From: an archaeon
GTDB lineage: Archaea > Iainarchaeota > Iainarchaeia > Iainarchaeales > CSSED10-239
Reading direction: 5' to 3'
Assembly: GCA_041657425.1 (NCBI GenBank)
Contig: JBBABY010000005.1
Coordinates: forward strand, 60,633-92,632
DNA length: 32,000 nucleotides
A program made the translations under genes and the position numbers. Below the pieces are notes generated by a model. It was not told the origin of the DNA. It ran no database searches and worked only from the letters and a program-made list of their open reading frames with translations. This document shows, piece by piece, positions 1,333 through 29,859 of this stretch (the first letter of the stretch is position 1; each line of letters opens with the position of its first letter).

Positions 1333-3042
1333 CTATGTGTTTAGAAATTCAAAGGTACTGGTTGTTCCTTTTTTAAATTTGTGATTTTTTAAGAAATCTA
1401 TGTGGTCAAATCTTTCTCTTGTAATTTTTTCTTTATCTGTGTCTTGTAGTTGTATAAAATTATTAATATCATAAGAACACAAAAATTCAGGCATAATCAC
1501 ATAGTCTGCTCCAGCATGATATAATTCTAAAGCCACATCTATGTGATCATTAACTACAATAAATAAGATATTTTTGTTTTTAGATTTAATCTTAGATATT
1601 AAAAAGTGATTAATGGAATAAGAATTAATTGTTGATATAATTACTTTTATTTTAGAGAGATTTAGTTCTTCTGTTAATTCAACATTTCCTGCATCTCCAT
1701 AAATATGATTAATTCTATTTTTTGTAAGTATTTTATCGATTTCGGGATTATGGTCAATTACCAAAAATTTTTTATTTTTCGTTTTAAGATATTCTCCAAC
1801 ACCCATTCCTACTTTATTATATCCAAAGATGATATAATTATAATCTTCTATAATTTGCACTTCGTCTCTTGCATTTTTCTTTTCAAAGATATTTAGATAT
1901 TTTCCGATTTTATCAAATATCCAATCAGAATATATTATCATGTAAGAAGAGCAAGTAATTGTTATTAGCCCTACAAAGGTAACAAATGAAAGAACCTCTG
2001 TTGTTAAATGTCCCGCAGTAATTCCTAAAGCGATAAGGATTAAAGAAAATTCAGAAATTTGAGCAACAGTAAGTCCTGCCATAAATCCTACTTTTTTTTT
2101 GTAACCCGATAGTCCCATAATAATCATAACAATTAAAGGATTACCTATTAAAATAAATAATGACAAAATTATTATTGGAATAATGTGTGCGGAAAAACTT
2201 CCAAAAGTCATTTGTAATCCTAATAATACAAAAAATAAAATCAAAAAGAAATCTCTTAGTGGTTTAAGCTTAAGGTTTATCTCAAATCTGTACGTTGAAA
2301 AAGACAAGAAAAATCCTGCAAGAAGCGCCCCGATTTCAATAGAGAAACCAAAGTAAAAAAACAATGCTGCAAGTATTAAACACCAACCAATTGAAAATAA
2401 TAATAAAAATTCTTGCGATTTTGCTACAAATTTAAGAAATTTAGGCAACAAATATATTGAAAATAATAACAATCCAATTACTAATCCAATGCCAATAAAT
2501 ATATTAGTTAACATTGATGATTTGTTTTGTCCACTAAGAGAAGAAATAACAATTAAAACAACTATTGCAACAAGATCTTGAACAACTAAAAAACCAATAG
2601 ATATTTTTCCATAAAGAGAATTGACTGCCCCCTTATCTGTAAGCAACTTCATTATAATAATGGTACTACTAAATGCAAGAGCTAAAGACACATAAAGAGA
2701 AGTAACCCAATTAAATCCTATAAGTAAACAAATAAGATATCCTATACCAGTAGTAAAAACAATTTGACCAATACCTGTAAATAAGGAAACCTTGCCCACT
2801 TCTTTTAAGACTTTAGGATTAAGATTTATCCCTACCATAAATAACAATAAAGAAACGCCTATATGTGAAAATACCGTAATTGACGAGGTGTCTTTAATAA
2901 TATTTAGAACATATGGACTAACTACAATTCCTGTAAGTATATATCCAATAATTAGTGGTTGCTTTAATAATCTAATAATTGTAGTTATGATAATAGCTAT
3001 GAATATAATAATACAGATTTCAATAAAAAAATTATTAATCAT
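1333..3042 (-). CDS. CPA2-family cation:proton antiporter (Kef-type) with C-terminal RCK/TrkA-N domain
   Basis: 569 aa. Multi-TM N-terminal region with LKQPLIIGYILTGIVVSP and EFSLIL motifs typical of Na+/H+ exchanger folds. The C-terminal IIFGYNKVGMGVGEYL...VIDHNPE is a Rossmann-type RCK domain. Confidence 0.85.
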   Translation of the reverse strand: MINNFFIEICIIIFIAIIITTIIRLLKQPLIIGYILTGIVVSPYVLNIIKDTSSITVFSHIGVSLLLFMVGINLNPKVLKEVGKVSLFTGIGQIVFTTGIGYLICLLIGFNWVTSLYVSLALAFSSTIIIMKLLTDKGAVNSLYGKISIGFLVVQDLVAIVVLIVISSLSGQNKSSMLTNIFIGIGLVIGLLLFSIYLLPKFLKFVAKSQEFLLLFSIGWCLILAALFFYFGFSIEIGALLAGFFLSFSTYRFEINLKLKPLRDFFLILFFVLLGLQMTFGSFSAHIIPIIILSLFILIGNPLIVMIIMGLSGYKKKVGFMAGLTVAQISEFSLILIALGITAGHLTTEVLSFVTFVGLITITCSSYMIIYSDWIFDKIGKYLNIFEKKNARDEVQIIEDYNYIIFGYNKVGMGVGEYLKTKNKKFLVIDHNPEIDKILTKNRINHIYGDAGNVELTEELNLSKIKVIISTINSYSINHFLISKIKSKNKNILFIVVNDHIDVALELYHAGADYVIMPEFLCSYDINNFIQLQDTDKEKITRERFDHIDFLKNHKFKKGTTSTFEFLNT

Positions 3043-3127: not shown

Positions 3128-4816
3128 ATGACACATTTACTATTATTGAATATTGCAATTATCATAATTTGTGCAACAGTAATGACATTTATTTTTACTA
3201 AACTTAAACAACCATCTGTTCTCGCATTTATAGTAACTGGTATTTTAATAGGTCCGTTAGTTCTTGGTTGGGTTAATAATTCTGAAGAAATAATGTTAAT
3301 TTCTGAAATTGGAATTGCCTTTCTTTTATTTAGTGTAGGAATTGGAACGGATTTAAAAGAATTAAAAAGTTTAAAATTATCGATTATTCTTTTGCCATTA
3401 ATAAATATAGTTCTTATGTTTATATTTTTATTTGTATTTAGTAAAGTTATTAATCTCACATTAATTCAATCATTATATTTTTCTGTCATATTGTCATTCA
3501 GTTCCACAATGTTAGTTGCTAAGATTTATTTAGATAATTTTATGATTGATTCTTTGCATGGGCGGATTGCGATCGGAATACTTCTTGTTGAAGATCTTAT
3601 AGCCATTCTTGCAATTCCAATTTTAAAAAATTTCAGCGAATTTACATTTTTGATGTTTTTAATAATTCTTGCAAAGACTGCGGTATTTGTTCTTTTTGCT
3701 CTTTTTTTAAATAAAATTGTGTATCCTTATATTATAAAACAAGCATACAAATCTGAGCAAAGTTTCTTCTTATTATCAATTGCAAGTTGTTTTATATTTA
3801 TTATGTTATCTTATCTTCTTGATTTTCCAATGGCCGTTGGTGCATTTTTTGGGGGGGTTGCAATTTCTATTTATCCGTATAGTTACGAAATCTCTAATAA
3901 AATCTCAAGTATAAGAGATCTTTTAGCAACTATTGTTTTTGTATCTTTAGGTATGCAGTTATCTTTAAATATTTCTAACGATATTTTCTTTATAATAGTA
4001 ATATTTATACTTGCATTTATAATAAAACCAATAATTCATTTCTTTATGATTTTATTTGCAGGATATGGTACAAAAATTTCTTTAAGAGTATCTGGAGATT
4101 TAAACCAGATTTCTGAATTTTCGTTAATAATAGCAATGCAAGGAATCGCTTTGGGGCAAATTACAAGTTCACAATATGCAATAGTGATTATAATTACTTC
4201 TCTATCAATGTTAACAACACCTTATGTAATGCTTAATAGTGAAAAGATATATACTTTCTTTAAACCAATAATGGATAGATTTAAGGAAGAATTTTGGCAC
4301 AGGCAAATAAATTCATTGTCTACCATTTCAAAAGATATTAAAGATCACATAGTAGTAATTGGTTCAGATGTAATGACTGAAGGTTTCATAAAAGTAGTTT
4401 CAAGAGATGTAGATCAACCAATTATCTTAGTGGATTATAATCCAGAAAAGTTATTAGCTTTTCAAAACAAAAGAATAAAATATGTTTGTGGAGACATCAA
4501 CTATAAAGAAGTAATGAATGCAGTAAATTTAAAAGAAGCAAAACTTGCAATATTGACTGCTCCAAAGTTTGATACAACAATAAGATTTCTAAAAACTGCA
4601 AAAACAATTAACCCTCGGCTTCCAATTTATGTTAGAGCAAAAACTAAAAAAGAAGCATTACAATTATATGAGCTTGGTGCAGATTTAGTGATCTTACCAC
4701 ATGTTTTAGAATCAAATTATCTTCTTCAAAAAGTTTATTCTTTTGTTAAAGATGGTCCCGAAAGAAACAAGGCTCTAAGATCTGAATATTTAAGTTATTT
4801 AAAAAAAGAAAATTAG
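3128..4816 (+). CDS. CPA2-family cation:proton antiporter with C-terminal RCK/TrkA-N domain (paralog of 1333..3042)
   Basis: 562 aa. LKQPSVLAFIVTGILIGP and SEFSLIIA motifs plus C-terminal VVIGSDVMTEGF...LVDYNPE. Transcribed divergently from its paralog. Confidence 0.85.
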   Translation: MTHLLLLNIAIIIICATVMTFIFTKLKQPSVLAFIVTGILIGPLVLGWVNNSEEIMLISEIGIAFLLFSVGIGTDLKELKSLKLSIILLPLINIVLMFIFLFVFSKVINLTLIQSLYFSVILSFSSTMLVAKIYLDNFMIDSLHGRIAIGILLVEDLIAILAIPILKNFSEFTFLMFLIILAKTAVFVLFALFLNKIVYPYIIKQAYKSEQSFFLLSIASCFIFIMLSYLLDFPMAVGAFFGGVAISIYPYSYEISNKISSIRDLLATIVFVSLGMQLSLNISNDIFFIIVIFILAFIIKPIIHFFMILFAGYGTKISLRVSGDLNQISEFSLIIAMQGIALGQITSSQYAIVIIITSLSMLTTPYVMLNSEKIYTFFKPIMDRFKEEFWHRQINSLSTISKDIKDHIVVIGSDVMTEGFIKVVSRDVDQPIILVDYNPEKLLAFQNKRIKYVCGDINYKEVMNAVNLKEAKLAILTAPKFDTTIRFLKTAKTINPRLPIYVRAKTKKEALQLYELGADLVILPHVLESNYLLQKVYSFVKDGPERNKALRSEYLSYLKKEN

Positions 4817-16346: not shown

Positions 16347-16400
16347 GAGCGCAACCGGTTTAGTTAACTAGAGAAGAAACGCCTATGAACTGGGCGAACA
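16347..16400 (+). repeat. Partial copy (C) of the GC-rich tRNA-Ser-associated module
   Basis: gcgcaaccggtttagt ... ctgggcgaac parallels gcaaccagttagt ... ggctgggcgccaac of module A (17157-17198) in the same order and orientation, and ends just before tRNA-Ser(UGA). Confidence 0.45.
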
Positions 16401-16406
16401 GTTAAA

Positions 16407-17137: not shown

Positions 17138-17149
17138 TTTAGTTGTGTG

Positions 17150-17271
17150 TCGATAAGCAACCAGTTAGTGCCATACAAATTCTGGCTGGGCGCCAACTCA
17201 GGAAAACAAAAGTTTTCAGGATGCCAAGAAATCGCAGCGACGATTTGTTGTGCACGACCGCAACCGGTTGT
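17150..17271 (+). repeat. GC-rich non-coding module A abutting the 5' end of tRNA-Ser(GGA)
   Basis: Contains gcaaccagtt (17157-17166), ggctgggcgc (17184-17193), hairpins gaaaac-aaaa-gttttc (17202-17217) and aaatcg-cagcga-cgattt (17229-17246), and gaccgcaaccgg (17256-17267). An inverted homolog lies at 28208-28282. Confidence 0.6.
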
Positions 17272-17570: not shown

Positions 17571-18248
17571 ATGGTTGTAAGAAAATTAACAAAAGGCAGT
17601 TTCCCAAATGCAAAAAATATTAAGAGCATTAAAATAGGAGGTCGTAAATTCGTTGCAGAAAAGAAACAGACAGCAGACATAAAACTAGAAATAAATAAAG
17701 AAAAAATTAAAATAATCAGTTCTTTAAAAAAACGTCTAGAGAGAGGAGAATTAAAATTAACCAGTGCCGATTTAATGAAATTAAAGGCACAGGGAATTAG
17801 CCTGATTGAATTAAGAAAAGTAATAGCTCCAGAATATTTGTTAAAAACTTTGAGTTTAAAAGCATTTGTAAAAATATATGGTCAAGAAGATGTAGTTAAG
17901 GCTTTTAATGGTATTTCCCGATTAATATTTGATGCTGGTTTGAGGGAGACAGTTTATGCTATTGATCCAAAATATTTTAAAAATGAATTTTCATTAAAAG
18001 AAATTGTGAATAAGCTTTTTAAATACGGCTACAAGGATGTGTCACAGTATAGGGCCCCAGATATGCAAAGCTATATGTCACAAAATGGACGTTATGAAGT
18101 AGCAAAGGCTTGGGGGCTTAAGAATATAATAGAAACATTTGGGATTAAAGAGACTATGGTGGCTATGGGTAGATCAGAATCTGAACTTAGATCTTTATTA
18201 AATGCATCAGATTACGATTTAGGGAAAGCTTTTCCTCGCGAATATTAG
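17571..18248 (+). CDS. Hypothetical protein (lysine-rich N-terminus, no recognisable domain)
   Basis: 225-aa ORF of non-repetitive composition. Its TAG stop (18246-18248) overlaps the first bases of the tRNA-Ser 3' fragment. Confidence 0.55.
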   Translation: MVVRKLTKGSFPNAKNIKSIKIGGRKFVAEKKQTADIKLEINKEKIKIISSLKKRLERGELKLTSADLMKLKAQGISLIELRKVIAPEYLLKTLSLKAFVKIYGQEDVVKAFNGISRLIFDAGLRETVYAIDPKYFKNEFSLKEIVNKLFKYGYKDVSQYRAPDMQSYMSQNGRYEVAKAWGLKNIIETFGIKETMVAMGRSESELRSLLNASDYDLGKAFPREY

Positions 18249-18287
18249 AGTCTCACGACTACGCGAGTTCGAATCTCGTCCTCTGCG
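18247..18287 (+). repeat. tRNA-Ser 3'-end copy 1 (variable arm + T-arm + 3' acceptor strand)
   Basis: agagtctcacgactacgcgagttcgaatctcgtcctctgcg compared with the intact 17314-17354 agagtcgaaagactacgcgagttcgaatctcgtcctctgcg. They differ only in the variable-arm loop. Followed by a T-run. Confidence 0.85.
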
Positions 18288-18312
18288 ATTTTTTATTTTG
18301 TGTTTAAATTGC

Positions 18313-22999: not shown

Positions 23000-23326
23000 A
23001 TGACTAGAAAAAAAGACGCAGGAGAATTGTTACATTATTTTTATAAATCGTCTATAGTTGATCACTCCATTTCTGCAGAAGATTTACTAAAAGAAATAAG
23101 ATGGGGAAGTTGGAGATTAGAAAAAGCAATTAAATATCTAAGAGATGTTGATGCGATTGAAATTACTCTATTTAAAGAAAAGATTGAAAGATTACAAAAG
23201 TTTGTAATAGTGGGCCTAACAAAAACAGGTATCCAAATAATAGAAGATAAATCCAAATTTAAAACCACTTTCGGATTTGAAATAAACTTAGAGAGCACAA
23301 AGTGGAGTTGGAATACTAAACGATAA
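23000..23326 (+). CDS. Small hypothetical protein, possible winged-helix
   Basis: 108 aa. WRLEKAIKYLRDVDAIEI...GLTKTGIQIIED. A TATA-like ttatttaataa lies 20-30 nt upstream of the ATG. Confidence 0.5.
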   Translation: MTRKKDAGELLHYFYKSSIVDHSISAEDLLKEIRWGSWRLEKAIKYLRDVDAIEITLFKEKIERLQKFVIVGLTKTGIQIIEDKSKFKTTFGFEINLESTKWSWNTKR

Positions 23327-23331
23327 ATATT

Positions 23332-23348
23332 GCGCGCGAGCTGAACGC
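23332..23348 (+). repeat. Short fragment (D) of the GC-rich module
   Basis: gcgcgagctga (23334-23344) is the exact reverse complement of tcagctcgcgc in module B (28223-28233), and the match continues as cgc after one mismatch. It sits in an unusually GC-rich 80-nt spacer. Confidence 0.35.
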
Positions 23349-23411
23349 TGTCGTTTTTGGGATGAAGCACTTTTTCTAAAAGGGCTCCACTGGACAGCTA
23401 CCCCCGAAAAC

Positions 23412-23419
23412 TTTAAACA
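23412..23419 (+). promoter_or_regulatory. TATA-like box for the exonuclease gene (leaderless layout)
   Basis: tttaaaca lies 22-29 nt upstream of the ATG at 23441. The promoter-to-ATG segment resembles the one at 24356-24388. Confidence 0.35.
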
Positions 23420-23440
23420 CTATTTCTTTCATAGTTATTT

Positions 23441-24025
23441 ATGAATTACTTATATGTAGATATCGAAACTGTTCCTGTGGATAAGGAAAAACATTTATCT
23501 CTAGATGAAGAGGAAAGAAAGAAACTCTTAAATCCAATTGATTCAAAAATTATTGCAATCGGTCTAAAGTCAACTAAAGATAATAAGCTAGTCATTCTTC
23601 AATCTGATAATGAAAAGGAAATGTTAACTGAATTTTGGAAGATTTACGACAATTTTAGAGCAAATAGTTCTTTAACAAACAAGATTGTGGGCTTTAACAT
23701 TAAGCAGTTTGATATTTCTTTTTTAGTGACTAGAAGCTTTGTTAATGGAGTTACAGTTGTTCCTTTCGTCTTAAAAGAGATAATCGACATTAGAGACCTA
23801 TTAACTTGCTTTAAAAGAGGGCCAACAAGAGGCACTTTAAAGGAATTTGGAGAGATTATTGGCGTGGTCTTAGTAGAAGACATGGACGGCTCAAAAGTGG
23901 CTGAAACTTACTGGTCAGGAAATATTGATTTAATCAAGACTTACTTAGCAAAAGACATAGAATTAACTGAAAAGATTCACAACAAGGTAATGGAACTAGG
24001 ACTAGACAAAATAAGAGAATGGTGA
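23441..24025 (+). CDS. DEDD-type 3'-5' exonuclease, PolB-exonuclease-domain-like (RNase H fold)
   Basis: 194 aa. LYVDIETVP (Exo I), VGFNIKQFDISFL (Exo II) and YLAKDIELT (Exo III). Confidence 0.7.
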   Translation: MNYLYVDIETVPVDKEKHLSLDEEERKKLLNPIDSKIIAIGLKSTKDNKLVILQSDNEKEMLTEFWKIYDNFRANSSLTNKIVGFNIKQFDISFLVTRSFVNGVTVVPFVLKEIIDIRDLLTCFKRGPTRGTLKEFGEIIGVVLVEDMDGSKVAETYWSGNIDLIKTYLAKDIELTEKIHNKVMELGLDKIREW

Positions 24026-24096
24026 AATATCTATTTAAATATTTAATGTTCATATATATTACTACAAGACTATAATATTTGGAGAAATGATAAAAC

Positions 24097-24327
24097 ATGG
24101 AAAGACAACCAGTAGATGACAATAACCATAAAATGATTGGAAATATAGTTTCAATTGGATATGATCCAGAATTAGAAGTTCTAGAAGTAGAATATCAATT
24201 AGGCTATTTATACCAATATCTTAAGGTTCCTAAAGAAACTTACGACAAATTAATGAACGAAAGAAACAAAATTACATTCGTTCAAGAAAGAATCGCAAAA
24301 GTTTATAAAAATCAAAGAATCAAATAA
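24097..24327 (+). CDS. KTSC-domain small protein
   Basis: 76 aa. IGYDPELEVLEVEYQLGYLYQYLKVPKETYDKLMN fits the KTSC pattern. GGAG RBS at 24081. Confidence 0.55.
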   Translation: MERQPVDDNNHKMIGNIVSIGYDPELEVLEVEYQLGYLYQYLKVPKETYDKLMNERNKITFVQERIAKVYKNQRIK

Positions 24328-24355
24328 GATTCTTTATTTTTAATTTTTAAATAAG

Positions 24356-24363
24356 TTTAAATA
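24356..24363 (+). promoter_or_regulatory. TATA-like box for the 24386 gene (leaderless layout)
   Basis: tttaaata lies 23-30 nt upstream of the ATG at 24386. The 14 nt atagttatttatga ending at the start codon are identical to those at 23441. Confidence 0.35.
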
Positions 24364-24385
24364 ATCTCTTTTTCTATAGTTATTT

Positions 24386-25114
24386 ATGATAAGTAAAAAT
24401 TCTGAACAAAGTTATAGAGAAATTATTTTACTTATACACCCATTATTCAATTTATTTCTAGATAAAATTAGTAGAATAAATTTCAATAATAAGGAAGAGC
24501 TATTAAAATATTTAGTTGGAAGAGAACCATTATTGATTAATTTAAAAGAAACAGTTAAAGATTATGCAAAAATTATTCTAAAATATAAAAATAAAAAAGG
24601 CGCATTATTTGTTTTAATTAATCCGGCAGCAAATAGTTCTCTTTCTTTTAATGTAGATGGCAAGAAAGTAAATTGGAAAAATTTGCCAGAATGTCAAGCA
24701 CTATTTTCTATAGTAAATATCATAAGTGCTTTTGGAAGAAAAGAGTTAGGTGAAAGATTTGTAATAACTAATTTTAGTCCGGAAGACGGTTACACAAAAT
24801 TATTTTCTGAGAAAATCTATAATAAATTAGATAAATATCTAGAAATAAGAGCTTTTGGAGAATACACTGATGGTTGTGTTTATGATATTTCAAATAGAGT
24901 TGTTGAAGAATTACAAAACAGAGAATTTAGAATAATGGACTTAGAGACTTTAAGAGATCATTGTATATCACTAAACGAGATAGAAACGAAACTAGATAAG
25001 CTATTAGAAGAAAAAAGGAAAGTATCAAAAATTAAAGAAAATCAACAAAAGAAAGAACAAATTCAAAAAGTAGTTTCTATGTTAAATAATTATAAGAAAT
25101 CCAAAGCAAAATAA
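24386..25114 (+). CDS. Hypothetical protein, no confident family
   Basis: 242-aa ORF with a lysine-rich coiled-coil C-terminal tail. ILLIHPLFNLF ... AFGEYTDGCVYD weakly resembles the isochorismatase/cysteine-hydrolase core (unverified). Confidence 0.5.
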   Translation: MISKNSEQSYREIILLIHPLFNLFLDKISRINFNNKEELLKYLVGREPLLINLKETVKDYAKIILKYKNKKGALFVLINPAANSSLSFNVDGKKVNWKNLPECQALFSIVNIISAFGRKELGERFVITNFSPEDGYTKLFSEKIYNKLDKYLEIRAFGEYTDGCVYDISNRVVEELQNREFRIMDLETLRDHCISLNEIETKLDKLLEEKRKVSKIKENQQKKEQIQKVVSMLNNYKKSKAK

Positions 25115-25199
25115 ATTATAGTTTTTAGCATACAAATCTTTAAAAACCCTAAGATATTATATTAATTTAGATATACTTAAATTATTACATTGAATATTT

Positions 25200-27776
25200 A
25201 TGGCTATAGAAAAATATAAAGCAGATAAAGAAGAGAAAGATTTCTTTGAAAAAATAGAAGATGAACCAGCAGAAGAAGAGTTAATTGATACCGTTAAAGA
25301 AAAAAAAGAAAAGATAAAAGAAATATCTCCAAAGCTTGAATTTTTAACAGATCCAAAGGATCCAGAAATGGTCTATATTGGAAGAAAAAAAAGCGTTCTA
25401 AAGGATCATGGTTCTAAGTCTTGTGCATTCTTAGGAAAGGTTTATGAGGATGATTGTAGAGATAAAAAGGTACATCTTGATGGATTAAACCCTCATGTTG
25501 TGTTTATAGATGGTTCAAGAGGATCAGGTAAGAGTTATGGCCTTGGGGTAATTGCTGAAGAGTTATCTGCAAATAATCCATATATTGGACAGATTGTTGT
25601 TGATCCAGTAGGTGTCTTTTGGTCCATGAAATATCCAAATCAAGAAAAGAAAGAACTAGAGGAATTAATTGCTTGGGGATTATCTCCAAAAGGTTGTAAT
25701 AATTTAAAAGTTTTTGTTCCAGAAGGAGTAGTAAGTAAAGTTTCAAAAGAAACATATGATGAAACTTTTTCAATGTATCCATCTTTACTTTTAGCAGAGG
25801 ATTGGTGTCTAACTTTTGGAATTGATAGATTTAATCCAACAGGTTTACTTCTTGAAAAAACACTATCTTTCGTAAAAACGGGTTATAAAGCAGGAGATCC
25901 AAGTAAAGATGATGTTCCTGAGCAGGACATTCCTTCTAAAGGAAATCTTTACACATTAGAAGACATAATTTTTTGTTTACAAAACGCAATGGAGTTTAAG
26001 TCTTCTTCAACAGGTTATAAGCAAGATTCAATAAGAGCATTAGTTTCAAGATTTGAAGCAGCAAAGGCTTGGGGAATATTTAGTGATCACGGTACACCAC
26101 TTTCAAAGCTTTCAAAGGAAAGACAATTGACAATTCTTGATACTAGTTTTTTAGATGACAATATCACAGCACTAGTTATTGGAATATTAGCAAGAAGAAT
26201 ACTTTCTGCAAGAAAGTTAGTAACAAGACAAGATGCAATTAAAAAGTTTGATGATAATTCAGAAAGTCCTGATGATCTTCTAGAGATATCAATTCCTCCA
26301 ACTTGGGTGTATATTGATGAAGCTCACACATTAATACCTTCTGGTAACACAATCACTCCAGCAACAAACGCAATAATTGAATATGTTAAGCAAGGAAGAA
26401 GACCAGGTTGTTCAATGGTTCTTGCCACTCAGCAACCTTCTGCAATCAACTCCAAGGTTCTTTCTCAAGTTGATATTTTCATAAGCCATAAGCTTGTTTT
26501 CAATGACGATATCCACGCAGTTCAGAAAAGAATGCCTGCAATTATTCCTGAGGCTTACAAGGATCCTAATTTCATAAAGACACTTCCAGTAGGTGTTGCA
26601 TTAACTGGAGATAGAGGAGAAGAAACAAAAAGAGCATTTATCTTAAAAATAAAACCAAGACTAAGTCAACATGAAGGAAGAGATGCAGAAACAATTAGAG
26701 AGGTTCCAACATTAGGAAAAAAAGAAATAATTAATTTTTGTTCAGACATGGTATATAAGAAATTAGTTGCTTCAAAAACTTTAAAGACAACTGATGCAAA
26801 AGATTTGCTTGACGTAATTAATTCAAAGTACAATAGCGAAATAACATTTAATGAAGTATTAATCTCATTAAGTAAGATGGGTGTTGTTGAAAAAGAAAAC
26901 ATCTTAGTGTTTGCAAACAAAAGTCAAAAACAAAAAACAGAAATATCAAAAGAAGAAATAGAAAATATTAATCAAGCCATTGAGTATTCAAATGCAGTTG
27001 ACCAAAACCCAGAACTTAGAGAACCTGCTCCAGAAATAGAGCCAGACTACAAGCCAGTTCTTCCTCAAAGGATTTCAAGAGAAATAGCAATTAATATTGC
27101 AAGTAGAACTAATAAGAAGAAGTTCTTTTTTATTAAAGAAGAAGAATCAATTACTCAAATACATATAGTTTACAGAAAACTATACAAAGTAATTTACAAT
27201 ATCTTTGATGAAGAAGAAAATTATATCACTCATAATTGTTTCATAGATTCAATAACAGGAGAATTCATACATTTTGATGGAGTTGATTTTAAGGAGTCAA
27301 CTGGTTTTAATCTTGTTGATGATTTAACTGTTGATGATATTATATTACTAGATAAAATCTTTGCTTGGAGGACTCCAGAAGAGTTGTCTGAAGAATTAGA
27401 AGCAACTCCCGAACAAATAAAAGAAGATTTAATTTCTCTAGTTGACAGAGAATTAGCAGATGTTGATTTAATAAATAAACAAGAAGCTTTCAGAATTAAA
27501 AGAAAAATAGATGTGCCATTTTCCCCAAAGCTTTCAATTCTTTCTTCAGTAACTGATCTGCCATTAAAGAAGCAATTAATCCCAATTGTAGAAGATGAGG
27601 AAGAAATATCAAAAGAAGAAATTGATGAGAGATTAAATAAGTTATGGCAAAACATAGAAGTAGTAGACATTGAAGAAGTCTTTTGGCCAATCTGGGAAAT
27701 TAATTCAAGAGACAAAAGAGCAAATGATAGATTTGTTCTAGTTGATGCAGTACTTGGTCAAATAGTTGATGCTTAA
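25200..27776 (+). CDS. HerA/FtsK-superfamily (DUF87-type) P-loop ATPase with a long C-terminal extension
   Basis: 858 aa. Walker A VFIDGSRGSGKS, Walker B WVYIDEAHTLIP, GRRPGCSMVLATQQPSAI and FISHKL motifs. An acidic N-terminal tail and a C-terminal extension of about 370 aa are not typical of HerA. Confidence 0.8.
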   Translation: MAIEKYKADKEEKDFFEKIEDEPAEEELIDTVKEKKEKIKEISPKLEFLTDPKDPEMVYIGRKKSVLKDHGSKSCAFLGKVYEDDCRDKKVHLDGLNPHVVFIDGSRGSGKSYGLGVIAEELSANNPYIGQIVVDPVGVFWSMKYPNQEKKELEELIAWGLSPKGCNNLKVFVPEGVVSKVSKETYDETFSMYPSLLLAEDWCLTFGIDRFNPTGLLLEKTLSFVKTGYKAGDPSKDDVPEQDIPSKGNLYTLEDIIFCLQNAMEFKSSSTGYKQDSIRALVSRFEAAKAWGIFSDHGTPLSKLSKERQLTILDTSFLDDNITALVIGILARRILSARKLVTRQDAIKKFDDNSESPDDLLEISIPPTWVYIDEAHTLIPSGNTITPATNAIIEYVKQGRRPGCSMVLATQQPSAINSKVLSQVDIFISHKLVFNDDIHAVQKRMPAIIPEAYKDPNFIKTLPVGVALTGDRGEETKRAFILKIKPRLSQHEGRDAETIREVPTLGKKEIINFCSDMVYKKLVASKTLKTTDAKDLLDVINSKYNSEITFNEVLISLSKMGVVEKENILVFANKSQKQKTEISKEEIENINQAIEYSNAVDQNPELREPAPEIEPDYKPVLPQRISREIAINIASRTNKKKFFFIKEEESITQIHIVYRKLYKVIYNIFDEEENYITHNCFIDSITGEFIHFDGVDFKESTGFNLVDDLTVDDIILLDKIFAWRTPEELSEELEATPEQIKEDLISLVDRELADVDLINKQEAFRIKRKIDVPFSPKLSILSSVTDLPLKKQLIPIVEDEEEISKEEIDERLNKLWQNIEVVDIEEVFWPIWEINSRDKRANDRFVLVDAVLGQIVDA

Positions 27777-27791
27777 AAGAAGGAAAAACTT

Positions 27792-28127
27792 ATGTTAGAT
27801 TTACTTAAAAAAAAAGAAGATACAAAGCTTAGTGTTGATTCATTTATTTTAGACTCATGTAAAGCAACACCTGGTTTTGAGTTTTTCCCTAAGAAATCCA
27901 CAAAGATTGATTTAGAGAAATTATTAATGACTTTAAGGACAAAGAACTACTATATAGAAAAAGATAATTCTCCATTTCTAATAATTATAAAAACAAAAAA
28001 AGGAACAGTTACTATTTTTAGTTCATTAAAAATAATAATTAGAGAAACAACACAAGAAAAAGTTGCAAAAGCAATACTTACTGATCTCTTAAAAGTAATA
28101 AACGATTTTTTGTATAAGCAAGGGTGA
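27792..28127 (+). CDS. Small protein with a TBP-repeat-like motif, probably co-translated with the ATPase
   Basis: 111 aa, starting 15 nt after the ATPase stop and preceded by gaagga. FLIIIKTKKGTVTIFSSLKIIIRETTQEKVAKAI resembles one TATA-binding-protein repeat (tentative). The last 10 nt overlap tRNA-Ser(CGA). Confidence 0.5.
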   Translation: MLDLLKKKEDTKLSVDSFILDSCKATPGFEFFPKKSTKIDLEKLLMTLRTKNYYIEKDNSPFLIIIKTKKGTVTIFSSLKIIIRETTQEKVAKAILTDLLKVINDFLYKQG

Positions 28128-28207
28128 CTGAGTTCGGTTGAAGGTGCTAGTCTCGAAAACTAGATGCGGTTTATACCCGCACATGGGTTCAAATCCCATT
28201 CCTTGCG
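28118..28207 (+). tRNA. tRNA-Ser (anticodon CGA)
   Basis: Acceptor gcaaggg/tccttgc (one G-U pair), anticodon stem ctagt/actag with loop ctCGAaa, long variable arm tgcgg-tttatac-ccgca, T-arm atggg-ttcaaat-cccat, discriminator G. No CCA. Confidence 0.9.
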
Positions 28208-28282
28208 TAGAGCCGGTTGCGGTCAGCTCGCGCCCAGCCTGGTTTGAATATCATGCACTACTCGGTTTCGCTTGCGCACAGT
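28208..28282 (-). repeat. GC-rich module B, an inverted homolog of module A, abutting the 3' end of tRNA-Ser(CGA)
   Basis: ccggttgcggtc (28213-28224) and gcgcccagcc (28230-28239) are exact reverse complements of 17256-17267 and 17184-17193. The next 40 nt or so resemble the reverse complement of 17150-17183. Confidence 0.6.
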
Positions 28283-28388
28283 GGTTAATCTCCTAAACAG
28301 ATTATAAGGTTTAACCCTAATTAAAAAGAGGTATTTATATAAACTTTATATCATAATCTATTTATAGAAATCAAAGGAGATTTAAATA

Positions 28389-29669
28389 ATGAATAAAAAA
28401 ATATTAATTGGAATTTTTATAGTATTAATAATAGGTGTTGCAACAGCAGGAGCTGTTGCGTTTTTAAGACCTTATAATCCATTAACTCCACCATCAGTTG
28501 ATGATACTGGATTAACAACAGAAGGAATACAAGAAGTAGCAAATGCCAATAATAAGTTTGCAATTGATGTCTATAAACAAATAACTGCAACGAATAATGA
28601 CAATGTTTTCGTTTCTCCATATAGTATATCTTCAGCATTAGCAATGACTTATGAAGGGGCAAATGGTCAAACTGCAGATGAAATGAAAGCAGTTTTTAAT
28701 TTTCCTGAGACCGATTTAATGAGGCCTAACTTTGCAGCAGTTTATAATATAATTAATAAAGAAGATAAGCAATATGAACTAAGGACTGGAAATGCTTTAT
28801 GGATTCAGAAAGATTATACGATTTTATCTAATTATCTTTCAACAGTTGAAAAATATTATGGTGGTAAAGCAGTAAATTTAGATTTCATAAATGAAACTGA
28901 AAAATCTAGATTAACAATTAATAGTTTTATTGAAGAACAAACAAATAATAAAATAAAAAATTTGATTCCAGTAGGTTTAATTTCAGGAGATACAAGACTT
29001 GTTTTAACAAATGCAATATATTTCAAAGGTAAGTGGGATGTAGAATTTAATAAGGATAATACAATAAAAAGAGAATTTAGAACGCCAACAGAATCAAAAG
29101 AAGTTTTGACAATGTTTATGGCTCCAAAACCAGAAGAATTATTTAATTATTTTGAAGATGAAGAACTTCAAGCAATAGAGTTGCCTTACAAAGATAAAGA
29201 ATTATCAATGGTAATAATACTTCCAAAAGAAGATAATGTTTTAACAACACTAGAGCAATCTCTTACCTCTGAGAAATTAAATGAATGGACAAGTAATTTA
29301 AAAGAATCAAGAGTTGATGAAATTTATTTTCCAAAATTTGAATTTGATTCAGGTGCAGAATTAAGTGAGATATTAAAAGATATGGGAATGCCCACAGTAT
29401 TTTCGGCTTCAGCTGATTTTTCTAAAATGACTGGAAATAGGGAATTATCAATTGGTGCAGTAATCCATAAAGCATTCATAAAAGTAGATGAAGAAGGTTC
29501 AGAAGCTGCAGCAGCAACTGCAGTAGTAATGAGGGACACTGCTGTGGGGCCAGGAGATACGCCACCTAAAACAATATTTAAAGCAGATCATCCATTTCTT
29601 TTTTTGATTAAAGAAAACAGCACAGGAACGATCTTGTTTATGGGAAGAATCAATGATCCTTCCTCTTAG
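28389..29669 (+). CDS. Serpin-family protease inhibitor with N-terminal membrane anchor/signal
   Basis: 426 aa. NVFVSPYSISSALAMTYEGANGQTADEM, TNAIYFKGKW, hinge EEGSEAAAATAVV and DHPFLFLI are canonical serpin motifs. N-terminal hydrophobic helix ILIGIFIVLIIGVATAGAVAF. Confidence 0.9.
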   Translation: MNKKILIGIFIVLIIGVATAGAVAFLRPYNPLTPPSVDDTGLTTEGIQEVANANNKFAIDVYKQITATNNDNVFVSPYSISSALAMTYEGANGQTADEMKAVFNFPETDLMRPNFAAVYNIINKEDKQYELRTGNALWIQKDYTILSNYLSTVEKYYGGKAVNLDFINETEKSRLTINSFIEEQTNNKIKNLIPVGLISGDTRLVLTNAIYFKGKWDVEFNKDNTIKREFRTPTESKEVLTMFMAPKPEELFNYFEDEELQAIELPYKDKELSMVIILPKEDNVLTTLEQSLTSEKLNEWTSNLKESRVDEIYFPKFEFDSGAELSEILKDMGMPTVFSASADFSKMTGNRELSIGAVIHKAFIKVDEEGSEAAAATAVVMRDTAVGPGDTPPKTIFKADHPFLFLIKENSTGTILFMGRINDPSS

Positions 29670-29750: not shown

Positions 29751-29772
29751 CAAGTTAATCCTAATATATATG

Positions 29773-29859
29773 TATGTCAGCTGCTAGTTCGTTCGTCAGG
29801 TAACCAATCCTGGGGGACAACCTAGGGTGGCAATATCCTTTGTGATATCCTCTGACATA
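29773..29859 (+). ncRNA. Candidate structured small RNA of unknown class
   Basis: A markedly GC-richer 87-nt island closed by a perfect 8-bp terminal stem (tatgtcag 29773-29780 / ctgacata 29852-29859). It has internal helices such as cagg-uaaccaau-ccug, a TATA box upstream, and a tattttttaa T-run immediately downstream. Confidence 0.4.

What the first reader, a model, noticed from the sequence alone, without database searches (positions are those of the whole stretch)
23000..28127. Same-strand cluster of a HerA-type ATPase, a PolB-exo-like exonuclease and small unknown partners, unlike known HerA systems
Six co-oriented, tightly spaced genes make up the cluster. (1) A 108-aa wHTH-like protein. 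(2) A DEDD 3'-5' exonuclease (YVDIETVP / FNIKQFDISFL / YLAKDIELT). (3) A KTSC-domain protein. (4) A 242-aa orphan with a basic coiled-coil tail and a faint isochorismatase-like pattern. (5) An 858-aa HerA/FtsK-superfamily ATPase (GSRGSGKS, WVYIDEAH, ATQQPS). (6) A 111-aa protein, 15 nt downstream behind its own RBS, with one TBP-repeat-like motif (VTIFSSLKIIIRETTQEKVAKAI). The ATPase has an acidic N-terminal tail and a C-terminal extension of about 370 aa. That extension holds two similar beta-rich units, IHIVYRKLYKVIY..CFIDSITGEFIHF and VFWPIWEINSR..FVLVDAVLGQIVDA. Established knowledge: HerA-family motors work with NurA in end resection, act in conjugative or viral DNA translocation, and pair with Sir2- or DUF4297-type effectors in anti-phage systems. 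None of those partners (NurA, Sir2, DUF4297, Mre11/Rad50, VirD4-like) is visible here. Inference: given the accessory context (tRNA genes, att-like repeats, inverted modules), this may be an undescribed defence or mobile-element DNA-processing module. In that case the exonuclease and/or the orphan would be the effector, and the TBP-like protein a nucleic-acid-binding adaptor.
Basis: partly seen in the sequence, partly recalled or inferred. Interest (0 to 1): 0.7.

Follow-up and report, generated by a model that had tools for sequence, protein, structure and literature searches.

The report
Conserved archaeal HerA-like ATPase with TBP-domain partner
The six genes are not one system: only the large HerA-type ATPase and the small TBP-fold protein just after it stay together in related tiny archaea (Iainarchaeia), where they look like an uncharacterised chromosomal housekeeping pair, not an anti-virus or mobile module.

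Summary
All six co-oriented ORFs are at the stated coordinates. The domain calls for the PolB-exo-like exonuclease, the KTSC protein, the HerA/DUF87 ATPase and the single TBP repeat hold. The wHTH call (108 aa) and the isochorismatase hint (242 aa) do not.

The window is ordinary chromosome of a DPANN archaeon (Iainarchaeia/Diapherotrites, near Ca. Forterrea), with no integrase or att structure. The ATPase is conserved over its full length (42-83% identity) in at least 219 species-level genomes, among housekeeping genes.

In 81 species-level loci, the 242-aa orphan occurs only in this genome. The wHTH, exonuclease and KTSC genes occur in 3, 7 and 5 loci, in shuffled order. The TBP-like gene lies directly downstream in 18 of 19 loci of the window's own clade. 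In more distant genomes it is often adjacent or a few kb downstream, sometimes beyond an inverted glmU-glmM-glmS cassette.

The ATPase C-terminus is two wHTH domains, each followed by a PepSY-like unit. The two units are homologous (hhalign probability 94%). It fails the tests for canonical HerA-NurA, anti-phage HerA, FtsK and VirB4.

Best reading: a lineage-specific, vertically inherited HerA-superfamily DNA motor with a monopartite TBP-domain partner. It is a new variant of a known kind. Its cellular role is inferred, not shown.

The parts
25200..27776 (+). 858-aa HerA/FtsK-superfamily ATPase, the core of the conserved unit
   Evidence: PF01935 above cut-off. Full-length homologues at 42-83% identity in at least 219 species genomes. 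Long invariant stretches include the Walker A, Walker B, QQP and RR motifs.
25200..25337 (+). Disordered acidic N-terminal tail (residues 1-46), variable in length in homologues (up to about 300 aa)
   Evidence: pLDDT below 50; pI 4.7; large Asp/Glu-rich insertions in homologues.
25338..26711 (+). Small N-terminal beta domain plus P-loop motor (residues 47-504): Walker A 105-112, Walker B 369-376, ATQQPS 409-414
   Evidence: PADLOC mad8 covers residues 77-497 (E 3e-16). HerA chains in PDB align only to about residues 308-468 (E 2.5e-8).
26712..26924 (+). Helical/winged-helix domain 1 (residues 505-575), basic (pI 8.8)
   Evidence: AF2 pLDDT 77-87 with helices and a beta-hairpin; pI.
27045..27299 (+). 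PepSY-like alpha+beta unit 1 (residues 616-700; IHIVYRKLYKVIY...DSITGEFIHF)
   Evidence: AF2 pLDDT 76-91 (one 10-residue block at 54), one helix plus an antiparallel sheet. Homologous to unit 2 by hhalign, probability 94%.
27300..27509 (+). Winged-helix domain 2 (residues 701-770), TrmB/MarR/ArsR-like, acidic in this protein (pI 4.3)
   Evidence: Profile search of PDB finds MecI, ArsR and MarR chains. Foldseek probability 1.0 to MarR/ArsR wHTH. TrmB and IclR HTH are above the Pfam cut-off in homologues P0047 and P0118. pI.
27534..27773 (+). PepSY-like unit 2 (residues 779-858; VFWPIWEINSR...VLVDAVLGQIVDA)
   Evidence: AF2 pLDDT 80-91. PF03413 PepSY above cut-off in homologues P0089, P0048 and P0100. 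hhalign to unit 1.
27777..27791 (+). 15-nt spacer with an SD-like GAAGGA (27779-27784), 7 nt before the ATG. It implies co-transcription of the ATPase and the TBP-like gene.
   Evidence: None of the other five genes has an SD-like motif. Short spacers (about 6-68 nt) are seen in the adjacent pairs of other loci. Co-transcription is an inference.
27792..28127 (+). 111-aa monopartite TBP-domain protein, the only conserved partner of the ATPase. It has an extra N-terminal beta-hairpin carrying invariant C23, F31 and P33.
   Evidence: PF00352 above cut-off here and matched at E<=0.1 in 11 of 16 family members. AF2 pLDDT 87.9; Foldseek 1ais TBP probability 1.0, TM 0.56, rmsd 2.5 A; RNase H3 N-domain is also hit. 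Alignments A2 and A3. Linkage.
28118..28207 (+). tRNA-Ser(CGA), overlapping the last 10 nt of the TBP-like gene. A syntenic neighbour, not an integration scar.
   Evidence: The same tRNA sits at the same place in L002-4, L010-14 and L027.
23000..23326 (+). 108-aa basic protein. A neighbour only, not part of the conserved unit. The wHTH call is unverified.
   Evidence: No family. Present in 3 of 81 species loci.
23441..24025 (+). 194-aa PolB-exo-like DEDD 3'-5' exonuclease. A neighbour only.
   Evidence: PF10108. Present in 7 of 81 loci at offsets of -84 to -3047 nt.
24097..24327 (+). 76-aa KTSC-domain protein. A neighbour only.
   Evidence: PF13619. Present in 5 of 81 loci; its order relative to the exonuclease is swapped in relatives.
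24386..25114 (+). 242-aa orphan, specific to this genome. Not part of the conserved unit.
   Evidence: No family and no PDB relative. Absent from all other loci, including those whose ATPase is 75-83% identical.

Best explanation
The real unit is a two-gene, probably bicistronic pair, not six genes.

Gene 1 is a soluble HerA/FtsK-superfamily P-loop motor. By analogy with the superfamily it would form a ring that translocates along double-stranded DNA. It carries a lineage-specific C-terminal module: a basic helical/winged-helix domain, a PepSY-like unit, a TrmB/MarR-like winged helix and a second, homologous PepSY-like unit.

Gene 2 is a basic (pI 9.5) single-TBP-domain protein.

The pair is vertically inherited and chromosomal, and probably near-universal in Iainarchaeia (Diapherotrites, DPANN). 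I read it as a housekeeping DNA-handling machine for chromosome processing, segregation or repair. In this model the motor supplies ATP-driven translocation. The wHTH domains and the TBP-domain protein would supply nucleic-acid or partner recognition.

Shown: gene content, domain architecture, conservation, synteny and linkage.
Inferred: ring assembly, DNA as the substrate, physical interaction of the two proteins, and the cellular role.

The upstream wHTH-like, exonuclease, KTSC and orphan genes are unrelated neighbours with their own likely promoters.
For: Family and motifs:
- DUF87/HerA central domain above the Pfam cut-off. The best PDB and PADLOC relatives are all HerA-type.
- The catalytic motifs are invariant across 15 homologues down to 45% identity.

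Core, vertical gene:
- 219 GTDB species genomes encode a relative. Contigs reach 0.4-1.2 Mb and include complete chromosomes CP045477, CP064981 and CP010424.
- Neighbours are housekeeping genes such as CTP synthase, tRNA synthetase, CCA-adding enzyme, glmS/glmM/glmU, BacA and thioredoxin.
- Some homologues carry inteins (P0076, and 3 of 50 more distant ones). By general knowledge, inteins favour conserved sites of essential ATPases.
- No relatives in viral contigs or phage records.

Partner linkage:
- The TBP-like gene is directly downstream in 18 of 19 loci of the clade with at least 52% identity, and in L007, L028, L077, L089 and L091.
- It lies 1.5-7.7 kb downstream in L040, L047, L071, L080, L081, L085, L090 and L092. 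In at least L090 and L092 this is beyond an inverted glmU-glmM-glmS cassette, which is present in 27 loci.
- Only this gene has an SD-like site and a 15-nt spacer.

DNA link:
- wHTH domains are present.
- The same motor clade is fused to SAP, MarR, TrmB or ArsR DNA-binding domains in other archaea.
- The partner has a TBP fold and is basic.

Four neighbours excluded.
Against: - No experiment, and no complex prediction between the two proteins.
- The AF2 model of the motor itself is poor (pLDDT below 50 over residues 345-438 and 462-503; 15-sequence alignment). Ring assembly and pore features are therefore assumed from homology.
- wHTH2 is acidic here (pI 4.3), so it may bind protein rather than DNA.
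- PepSY domains are classically extracytoplasmic or protease-regulating, which fits a DNA motor badly.
- In 46 of 55 testable distant loci no TBP-like gene lies within 6 kb. There the linkage is loose or absent, and the flank limit prevents a full count.
- The closest motor-only relatives outside DPANN sit in defence-like neighbourhoods. L093 has an MTase, a PLD nuclease and a BrxD-like protein. The Haloplanus plasmid L098 has a BREX-type ATPase next to the homologue. A defence ancestry or role cannot be excluded.
- 'Near-universal in Iainarchaeia' rests on a pattern scan, not on a genome-by-genome census.
Confidence: 0.5

Rival explanations
1. First reader's reading. All six genes form one undescribed anti-phage or mobile-element DNA-processing module. 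The exonuclease and/or the 242-aa orphan is the effector and the TBP-like protein is the adaptor.
For: The six genes are co-oriented and fairly tightly spaced. The ATPase's best profile hits are defence-system HerA and mad8 models. An exonuclease next to a HerA-type motor recalls HerA-NurA logic.
Against: - orf242 is found only in this genome.
- wHTH, exo and KTSC occur in 3, 7 and 5 of 81 loci, with changed order and distances.
- The ATPase is syntenic and core.
- No integrase, transposase or att structure; the flanks are housekeeping genes.
- The tRNA-Ser is syntenic in relatives.
- PADLOC finds only a marginal DEDDh match for the exonuclease (E 0.012) and nothing for the other non-ATPase genes.
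- The spacers of 58-114 nt lack SD motifs, which suggests separate transcription units.
Confidence: 0.04
2. The ATPase plus TBP-like pair is itself a defence or conflict system that has become fixed in Iainarchaeia. A HerA-type sensor/scaffold is paired with a nucleic-acid-binding partner, and the effector is encoded elsewhere or lies in the C-terminal module.
For: - The best full-length motor match is PADLOC mad8 (E 3e-16 here; 1e-18 to 1e-22 in short relatives).
- Motor-only relatives in a thaumarchaeon and on a Haloplanus plasmid lie beside MTase, PLD-nuclease, BrxD-like or BREX-ATPase genes.
Against: - No recognisable effector domain (nuclease, Sir2, TIR, protease) in either protein.
- Distribution is broad, in conserved housekeeping synteny, one locus found per genome, with very strong sequence conservation. 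That is unlike the patchy, island-borne pattern of defence systems.
- No mad1-mad7 neighbours.
Confidence: 0.12
3. It is the lineage's version of the canonical HerA end-resection helicase, working with NurA/Mre11/Rad50 encoded elsewhere. The C-terminal module and the TBP-like protein are accessories.
For: HerA is the nearest characterised family. DPANN genomes are often rearranged, so operon loss is plausible (general knowledge).
Against: - NCBIfam canonical HerA equivalogs score 24.8 and 21.8 bits against cut-offs of 970 and 800.
- Similarity to solved HerA chains is limited to about 90-160 residues of the motor.
- No NurA, Mre11 or Rad50 in any of 12 Pfam-annotated loci, and no such conserved neighbour cluster in 81 loci.
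- The same motor clade occurs with quite different fusions (DUF835, SAP) in other archaea.
Confidence: 0.1
4. The motor does not act on DNA. It is a protein- or envelope-directed ATPase (secretion, assembly or protease-control). The PepSY-like units act as protease or partner regulators, and the TBP-fold protein is a protein-binding adaptor.
For: - PepSY domains are classically protease-inhibitory or extracytoplasmic (Pfam PF03413 description).
- wHTH2 is acidic.
- In distant loci the conserved synteny is with glmS-glmM-glmU, an S_layer_C-domain protein, a DUF4013 membrane protein and an M50 site-2 protease.
- The FtsK/HerA superfamily includes VirB4-type secretion ATPases (general knowledge).
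Against: - No signal peptide or TM segment (maximum 19-residue hydropathy 1.34).
- No Pfam hit to VirB4, TrbE or VirD4 families.
- DNA-binding fusions (SAP, MarR, TrmB, ArsR) recur across the motor clade.
- The envelope-gene synteny lies on the opposite strand and is missing in the window's own clade.
Confidence: 0.14

Closest known systems
HerA (archaeal/bacterial HerA-NurA end-resection helicase; Pfam DUF87 PF01935 / HerA_C PF05872)
   Same: Same P-loop superfamily and the nearest characterised family. The DEAH-type Walker B and the (A/S)(T/S)Q(Q/R)PS...LSQ...I..KL region align with solved HerA chains.
   Different: - Fails the curated HerA equivalog cut-offs by a wide margin.
- No NurA, Mre11 or Rad50 neighbours.
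- Has a roughly 350-aa C-terminal module (wHTH, PepSY-like, wHTH, PepSY-like) and an acidic tail not reported for characterised HerA (general knowledge).
- Is partnered with a TBP-domain protein.
Anti-phage HerA systems (HerA-Sir2, HerA-DUF4297; PDB 8xau, 9c1m, 8wiv, 8ziq) and MADS mad8
   Same: These give the best PDB and PADLOC hits. The mad8 profile aligns across the whole motor. Motor-only relatives in other archaea sit in defence-like islands.
   Different: - E-values are only 1e-6 to 1e-17.
- No Sir2, DUF4297 or mad1-7 partners.
- It is a core, syntenic, vertically inherited gene rather than a patchy island gene.
FtsK/SpoIIIE
   Same: Same superfamily. The general layout is analogous: a motor followed by a C-terminal winged helix, which in FtsK (the gamma domain) reads DNA polarity signals (established knowledge; PMC3130261, PMC3384302).
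   Different: - PF01580 is not reached (absent here; E about 0.005, below cut-off, in homologues).
- No membrane anchor.
- Homology of its wHTH to FtsK-gamma was not tested.
Monopartite TBP-domain proteins of Thermococcales (Brindefalk et al. 2013, PMC3597702) and the RNase HIII N-domain
   Same: Single TBP domain of about 90-110 aa in an archaeon, distinct from the real two-repeat TBP. The fold match also includes the RNase H3 N-domain.
   Different: - Direct homology to the Thermococcales family was not tested.
- The family here has an extra N-terminal hairpin with an invariant Cys and an FxP motif.
- It is genomically linked to a HerA-like ATPase, which that paper does not report.
DPANN-specific double-PepSY-like family cls.004634 (Makarova et al. 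2019, PMC6393860)
   Same: A DPANN-restricted protein family with two PepSY-like domains and unknown function. The ATPase C-terminus also carries two PepSY-like units.
   Different: In the window the units are fused to a motor and alternate with wHTH domains.

Membership tests
FtsK/HerA superfamily of P-loop pumping ATPases | Walker A, DEAH-type Walker B, a conserved Q/R sensor region and a match to a superfamily profile | tested here: met
   GSRGSGKS, WVYIDEAH, ATQQPS and KQGRRPG are invariant in 15 homologues. PF01935 scores 38.6 bits against a cut-off of 23.2.
Canonical HerA (HerA-NurA end resection) | Reaches the curated equivalog score (NF040819 / NF040937) | tested here: not met
   24.8 bits against 970, and 21.8 against 800.
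Canonical HerA (HerA-NurA end resection) | Operon or neighbourhood with NurA, Mre11 and Rad50 | tested here: not met
   None in the window or in 12 Pfam-annotated loci. No such conserved neighbour cluster among 81 loci. Presence elsewhere in the genomes was not testable.
Canonical HerA (HerA-NurA end resection) | N-terminal HAS beta-barrel | tested here: inconclusive
   Four beta-strands are predicted at residues 57-104, but pLDDT is only 52-79 and there was no fold match.
Anti-phage HerA systems (HerA-Sir2 / HerA-DUF4297) | Curated HerA_antiphage equivalog score, with an adjacent Sir2 or DUF4297 effector | tested here: not met
   36.5 bits against 850, and 31.3 against 800. No effector in any locus.
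Anti-phage defence systems in general | Patchy distribution in variable islands | tested here: not met
   At least 219 species genomes, with conserved housekeeping synteny.
MADS (mad1-mad8) | Match to mad8 plus the other mad genes in an operon | tested here: not met
   mad8 matches at E 3.3e-16 over profile positions 5-312 of 314. No other mad gene is hit in the cluster.
FtsK/SpoIIIE | PF01580 motor profile at its cut-off, plus an N-terminal membrane anchor | tested here: not met
   No PF01580 hit here and sub-threshold hits (16.7-16.9 bits against 24) in homologues. Maximum 19-residue hydropathy is 1.34, so no TM segment.
Conjugative VirB4/TrbE, VirD4/TraG | Profile match and T4SS neighbours | tested here: not met
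   No such Pfam family at E<=1. No T4SS genes in the loci. Plasmid tblastn gives only weak motor hits, apart from one haloarchaeal plasmid at 30% identity.
Viral FtsK/HerA-type packaging ATPases | Relatives in viral genomes and a capsid-gene context | tested here: not met
   No relative in IMG/VR, apart from one 38-residue P-loop match, and none in phage records. The PHROG terminase hit covers only 82 residues.
TBP-domain superfamily (111-aa protein) | Pfam TBP repeat at cut-off and the helix-grip TBP fold | tested here: met
   25.8 bits against 22.9. Matched at E<=0.1 in 11 of 16 family members. Foldseek TBP hits at probability 0.97-1.0, TM 0.47-0.56.
TATA-binding protein proper | Two tandem TBP repeats forming the saddle | tested here: not met
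   One repeat only, 90-123 aa across the family.
Thermococcales monopartite TBP-domain family (PMC3597702) | Sequence homology to NP_578195 / YP_184404-type proteins | not tested
   Those sequences are not held here. The profile search returned only DPANN-type proteins.
PepSY (PF03413) for the C-terminal units | Pfam profile at cut-off | tested here: inconclusive
   Not reached in the window protein (protein 1). It is reached for the last unit in homologues P0089 (29.1), P0048 (34.4) and P0100 (24.9) against a cut-off of 24. Unit 1 is linked to unit 2 by hhalign at probability 94%.
PolB-exo-like DEDD exonuclease PF10108 (exo194) | Pfam profile at cut-off | tested here: met
   49.2 bits against 24.
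Isochorismatase-like (orf242) | Any profile or sequence match | tested here: not met
   No hit in Pfam, NCBIfam, PADLOC or PDB.

The most novel reading that the evidence does not exclude
The ATPase/TBP-domain pair could be the dedicated chromosome-handling motor of Iainarchaeia. That is a soluble, FtsK-like functional analogue for segregation, decatenation, dimer resolution or DNA uptake from hosts, in a DPANN lineage. In this reading the wHTH/PepSY-like module and a single TBP domain, rather than a gamma domain or NurA, provide substrate recognition. It would give monopartite TBP-domain proteins their first assigned function. It would also define a new functional branch of the HerA superfamily, one that elsewhere in archaea appears as defence-island (motor-only) and DUF835/SAP-fused forms.
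Probability: 0.2. Interest if true: 0.7.

Novelty: new variant of a known kind. Interest (0 to 1): 0.4.

Why it matters
HerA/FtsK motors are central to DNA repair, segregation, conjugation, virus packaging and several new defence systems. This branch is strongly conserved and sometimes carries inteins. It is core to a whole class of ultra-small archaea, yet databases annotate it only as 'DUF87 / ATP-binding protein', and I found no paper describing it.

Its architecture (two wHTH/PepSY-like pairs) and its recurring TBP-domain partner give concrete, testable handles on two open questions. One is how DPANN archaea with minimal genomes manage their chromosomes. The other is what stand-alone TBP domains do.

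The practical result for the scan is negative. The apparent six-gene 'system' is an accident of local gene order, and it should not be catalogued as a defence or mobile module.

Tried and rejected
1. Six-gene operon. Rejected by tblastn and iterative-HMM censuses over 81 species loci.
2. Island integrated at tRNA-Ser. Rejected: the tRNA is syntenic in relatives, there is no integrase, and no tRNA-derived direct repeat was found.
3. Whole-protein AF2 plus Foldseek to classify the motor. This failed. The motor was modelled poorly from a 15-sequence alignment, and only the wHTH gave matches.
4. BLASTP between the two C-terminal halves found nothing. Profile-profile comparison was needed.
5. Search for a common partner of the motor-only relatives (L093, L094, L098). 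No pairwise similarity among their upstream or downstream genes, or to orf242 or the TBP-like protein.
6. TBP-like partner outside Iainarchaeia. None in the thaumarchaeal, Asgard or DUF835-fused (Thermoplasmatota-type) loci.
7. Apparent stand-alone C-terminal-module proteins (P0315, P0317, P0325, P0330). They start at an internal Met of the conserved RPRMSQHEGR motif, so they are probably truncated or frameshifted gene calls, not evidence of a split gene.
8. Rfam and single-strand folding of the GC-rich intergenic islands. No family, and no better than shuffles.
9. Literature searches for this ATPase or this pair found nothing specific.
10. PDB sequence searches for wHTH108, exo194 and orf242. 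Nothing significant.

Full report
**1. The observation**

The spacers are 114, 71, 58, 85 and 15 nt.

Profile searches confirm four of the six domain calls:
- The 194-aa protein is a PolB-exo-like DEDD exonuclease (PF10108, E 7e-13).
- The 76-aa protein is a KTSC domain (E 7.5e-16).
- The 858-aa protein carries the HerA central domain DUF87 (E 1.6e-9, above cut-off).
- The 111-aa protein matches one TBP repeat (25.8 bits against a cut-off of 22.9).

Two calls are not supported. The 108-aa protein has no family, only sub-threshold SarA-type and DnaD-type hints. The 242-aa orphan shows nothing isochorismatase-like and no relative in Pfam, NCBIfam, PADLOC or PDB. PADLOC finds only weak HerA and mad8 matches for the ATPase and one marginal DEDDh match for the exonuclease (E 0.012).

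**2. Where the window comes from**

GC content is 24-33%. The ATPase is identical to a protein of an 'archaeon' MAG. Its relatives are annotated Candidatus Diapherotrites, Iainarchaeum or Forterrea.

The rest of the window encodes ordinary chromosomal functions: Na+/H+ exchangers, a glycosyltransferase, cytidylate kinase, CTP synthase, a PALP-rhodanese enzyme, an ArsA/ParA-like ATPase, Fur, MscL, a serpin and YdjM. There is no integrase or transposase.

The tRNA-Ser(CGA) overlaps the end of the TBP-like gene. It occupies the same position in nine related loci of eight assemblies, so it is not an integration scar. The 'accessory context' premise is therefore not supported.

**3. The ATPase is a core, vertically inherited gene**

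A word-indexed search returned 663 relatives. The best 120 cover 60-100% of the query (nearly all 83% or more) at 44-100% identity.

A pattern scan of one genome per GTDB species found 219 genomes encoding a relative. They include complete chromosomes: Ca. Forterrea CP045477 and archaeon AR10 CP010424. The complete Iainarchaeum chromosome CP064981 also encodes one.

An alignment of 15 members down to 45% identity has long invariant stretches. These include Walker A, Walker B (DEAH), the QQP sensor region and the RR pair.

Some homologues carry inteins (P0076; 3 of 50 more distant members). By general knowledge, that is typical of highly conserved, essential ATPases.

No relative exists in 2.9 million viral contigs, apart from one 38-residue P-loop match, or in 50,697 phage records.

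**4. Which neighbours are conserved**

I ran tblastn and iterative HMM searches of the six proteins against 81 species-level loci (±6 kb). The counts of loci containing each gene are:

| Gene | Loci (of 81) | Note |
|---|---|---|
| orf242 | 1 | this genome only |
| wHTH108 | 3 | |
| exo194 | 7 | offsets -84 to -3047 nt |
| KTSC | 5 | order relative to exo swapped |
| TBP-like | 28 | |

The TBP-like gene lies immediately downstream in 18 of 19 loci whose ATPase is at least 52% identical. It is also adjacent in the distant loci L007, L028, L077, L089 and L091.

In other distant genomes it lies 1.5-7.7 kb downstream. In L090 and L092 an inverted glmU-glmM-glmS cassette has been inserted between the two genes. 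That cassette follows the ATPase in 27 loci.

In 46 of 55 testable distant loci nothing was found within the 6-kb flank. Linkage there is therefore loose or simply out of range.

In the window, only the TBP-like gene has an SD-like GAAGGA (7 nt from its ATG) and a 15-nt spacer. The other genes have AT-rich, TATA-like upstream regions. I infer a bicistronic ATPase/TBP-like unit and separate transcription of the rest.

**5. Anatomy of the pair**

The AF2 model of the ATPase is poor in the motor (pLDDT below 50 over residues 345-438 and 462-503). It is largely confident (10-residue pLDDT blocks 77-92) over residues 505-575 and most of 616-858; the linkers at 576-612 and 641-646 are below 50. The predicted domains are:
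- A disordered acidic tail (residues 1-46).
- A small beta domain plus the P-loop motor (47-504).
- A basic helical/winged-helix domain (505-575, pI 8.8).
- An acidic linker.
- An alpha+beta unit (616-700).
- A TrmB/MarR/ArsR-like winged helix (701-770).
- A second alpha+beta unit (779-858).

Evidence for the C-terminal domains:
- The winged helix is supported by a PDB profile search (MecI, ArsR, MarR), by Foldseek (probability 1.0) and by above-cut-off TrmB and IclR hits in homologues.
- The last unit reaches the PepSY cut-off in three homologues.
- The two units are homologous by hhalign (probability 94.2%, E 1e-7; controls 5-12%).
- There is no TM segment.
- wHTH2 is acidic here (pI 4.3), a caveat for DNA binding.

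The 111-aa partner models at pLDDT 87.9. Its best structural matches are TBPs (1ais: probability 1.0, TM 0.56, rmsd 2.5 Å over 81 columns), and the RNase H3 N-domain is also hit. It is basic (pI 9.5).

Its family of 98 clusters, 54-123 aa, carries only archaeal/Diapherotrites-type names where any are given. The members share an extra N-terminal hairpin with invariant C23, F31 and P33.

**6. The wider motor clade**

An exhaustive profile search found 2776 relatives, 323 of them at E<=1e-30. The same motor (profile positions about 84-530) occurs in several forms:
- Motor-only, 390-500 aa, in Thaumarchaeota, Hodarchaeales and on a Haloplanus plasmid.
- DUF835-fused forms of 780 aa (partial) to 1650 aa, one named as Thermoplasmatota; 3 of the 50 scanned relatives also carry a SAP domain.
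- Forms with various wHTH fusions.

The thaumarchaeal copy sits among an MTase, a PLD nuclease and a BrxD-like gene. The Haloplanus copy sits next to a BREX-type ATPase. The DUF835-fused copy lies among metabolic and membrane-protein genes. None of the three non-DPANN loci searched (L093-L096) has a TBP-like neighbour.

All forms hit PADLOC mad8 best, across the whole motor (E 1e-16 to 1e-22).

The Iainarchaeial long form is thus one architectural branch of a broader archaeal HerA-like clade. The members of that clade recur with DNA-binding fusions or in DNA-conflict contexts.

**7. Interpretation**

Best explanation (confidence about 0.5). The unit is a two-gene, chromosomal, vertically inherited pair. 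A HerA-superfamily ring translocase acts on DNA, and its wHTH/PepSY-like module and TBP-domain partner provide substrate or partner recognition. The likely role is chromosome processing, segregation or repair.

What is shown: composition, architecture, conservation and linkage. What is inferred: ring assembly, DNA as the substrate, physical interaction of the two proteins, and the cellular role.

Rivals:
- The six-gene defence or mobile module (0.04; refuted by the census).
- A fixed two-gene defence system (0.12).
- Canonical HerA with NurA encoded elsewhere (0.10; fails equivalog scores of 24.8 against 970).
- A non-DNA, envelope- or protease-related ATPase (0.14; PepSY, acidic wHTH2 and glm/S-layer_C/M50 synteny speak for it; lack of an export signal and recurrent DNA-binding fusions speak against it).

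**8. Comparison with known systems and novelty**

It works most like HerA/FtsK-type motors. It is not a member of canonical HerA-NurA, anti-phage HerA, MADS, FtsK/SpoIIIE, VirB4/VirD4 or viral packaging families. For each, at least one defining feature was tested and not met.

The partner belongs to the TBP-domain superfamily but is not a TBP. Its relation to the Thermococcales monopartite TBP-domain proteins (PMC3597702) and the relation of the C-terminal units to the DPANN double-PepSY family cls.004634 (PMC6393860) were not testable here.

Four literature searches found no description of this family or pair.

Verdict: a new variant of a known kind. It is moderately interesting (0.4) as an uncharacterised core DPANN motor with an unusual partner. 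As the proposed six-gene defence or mobile system, it is not real.

Noticed in passing
window 17142-17270, 23329-23407, 28208-28293, 29768-29856 (also 16366-16406, 18222-18288): Short intergenic islands of at least 50% GC in a roughly 29% GC genome, not explained by tRNA calls. Three of them share a roughly 25-nt motif (C)TGGGCGC(G/C)A(G/A)CT..GA(A/C)CGC: just upstream of tRNA-Ser(GGA), between the 108-aa gene and the exonuclease, and in inverted orientation just downstream of tRNA-Ser(CGA). In addition, 17257-17268 is complementary to 28213-28224. There is no Rfam family, folding is no better than shuffles, and the segments tested (23327-23415 and 28208-28300) are absent from relatives' loci. 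They could be small RNA genes, tRNA-flank processing elements or a short repeat.
   Followed up: partly
window 28118-28127: tRNA-Ser(CGA) begins 10 nt before the stop codon of the TBP-like gene. The same overlapping arrangement is conserved in related genomes (L002-4, L010-14, L027).
   Followed up: partly
window 23424-23444 and 24369-24389: Nearly identical 21-nt sequence (TTCTTTCATAGTTATTTATGA / TTTTTCTATAGTTATTTATGA) spanning the start codons of the exonuclease and the 242-aa orphan. Both are preceded by TTTAAA boxes about 25-30 nt upstream. This suggests similar promoters or leaderless starts, or a shared origin of the 5' ends.
   Followed up: no
L008, L009, L029 and 24 other loci; L090 491-4875; L092 3731-8946: An inverted glmU-glmM-glmS (UDP-GlcNAc synthesis) cassette directly follows the ATPase in 27 of 81 species loci. 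In the two cases with longer flank it separates the ATPase from the TBP-like gene. That gene is then followed by a DUF4013 membrane protein and, in L090, an M50 protease.
   Followed up: partly
homologues P0076 (1389 aa) and 3 of 50 distant relatives in A4: Inteins (Intein_splicing plus LAGLIDADG_3) are inserted in some members of this ATPase family.
   Followed up: no
L093 (Thaumarchaeota MAG) and L098 (Haloplanus sp. HW8-1 plasmid NZ_CP098519.1, 116089-117258): Motor-only relatives (389-501 aa) of the same ATPase clade lie in defence-like neighbourhoods. L093 has a type II MTase, a TPR protein, SLFN/AlbA_2, a PLD nuclease and a BrxD-like ATPase. L098 has a BREX-type ATP-binding protein, a PD-(D/E)XK nuclease and a helicase. 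This may be an undescribed archaeal defence module.
   Followed up: partly
P0252, P0262, P0278 (L095/L096 6001-10959), P0287: The same motor is fused to DUF835 (16 of 50 relatives), and 3 of those 50 relatives also carry a SAP DNA-binding domain. These giant proteins (1200-1650 aa) include at least one named as Thermoplasmatota. The one locus examined lies among metabolic and membrane-protein genes.
   Followed up: partly
window 28389-29669: A full-length serpin (PF00079, E 6.5e-119) with an N-terminal hydrophobic segment. It is encoded right after the pair and is syntenic in the 75%-identity relatives.
   Followed up: no
window 1333-3042 (-) and 3128-4816 (+): Two divergently oriented paralogous Na+/H+ exchanger/TrkA_N genes sit side by side.
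   Followed up: no
L042 (CAMTXJ010000014.1): This contig is titled 'Candidatus Peregrinibacteria bacterium'. It carries this archaeal ATPase and the TBP-like gene, and it matches an archaeal MAG contig (L043) in coordinates. It is probably a mis-binned or mislabelled archaeal contig.
   Followed up: no
P0232, P0315, P0317, P0325, P0330: Database entries that look like separate 'motor' and 'C-terminal module' proteins break at the conserved RPRMSQHEGR motif, where there is an internal Met. They are probably frameshifted or truncated gene calls rather than naturally split genes.
   Followed up: partly
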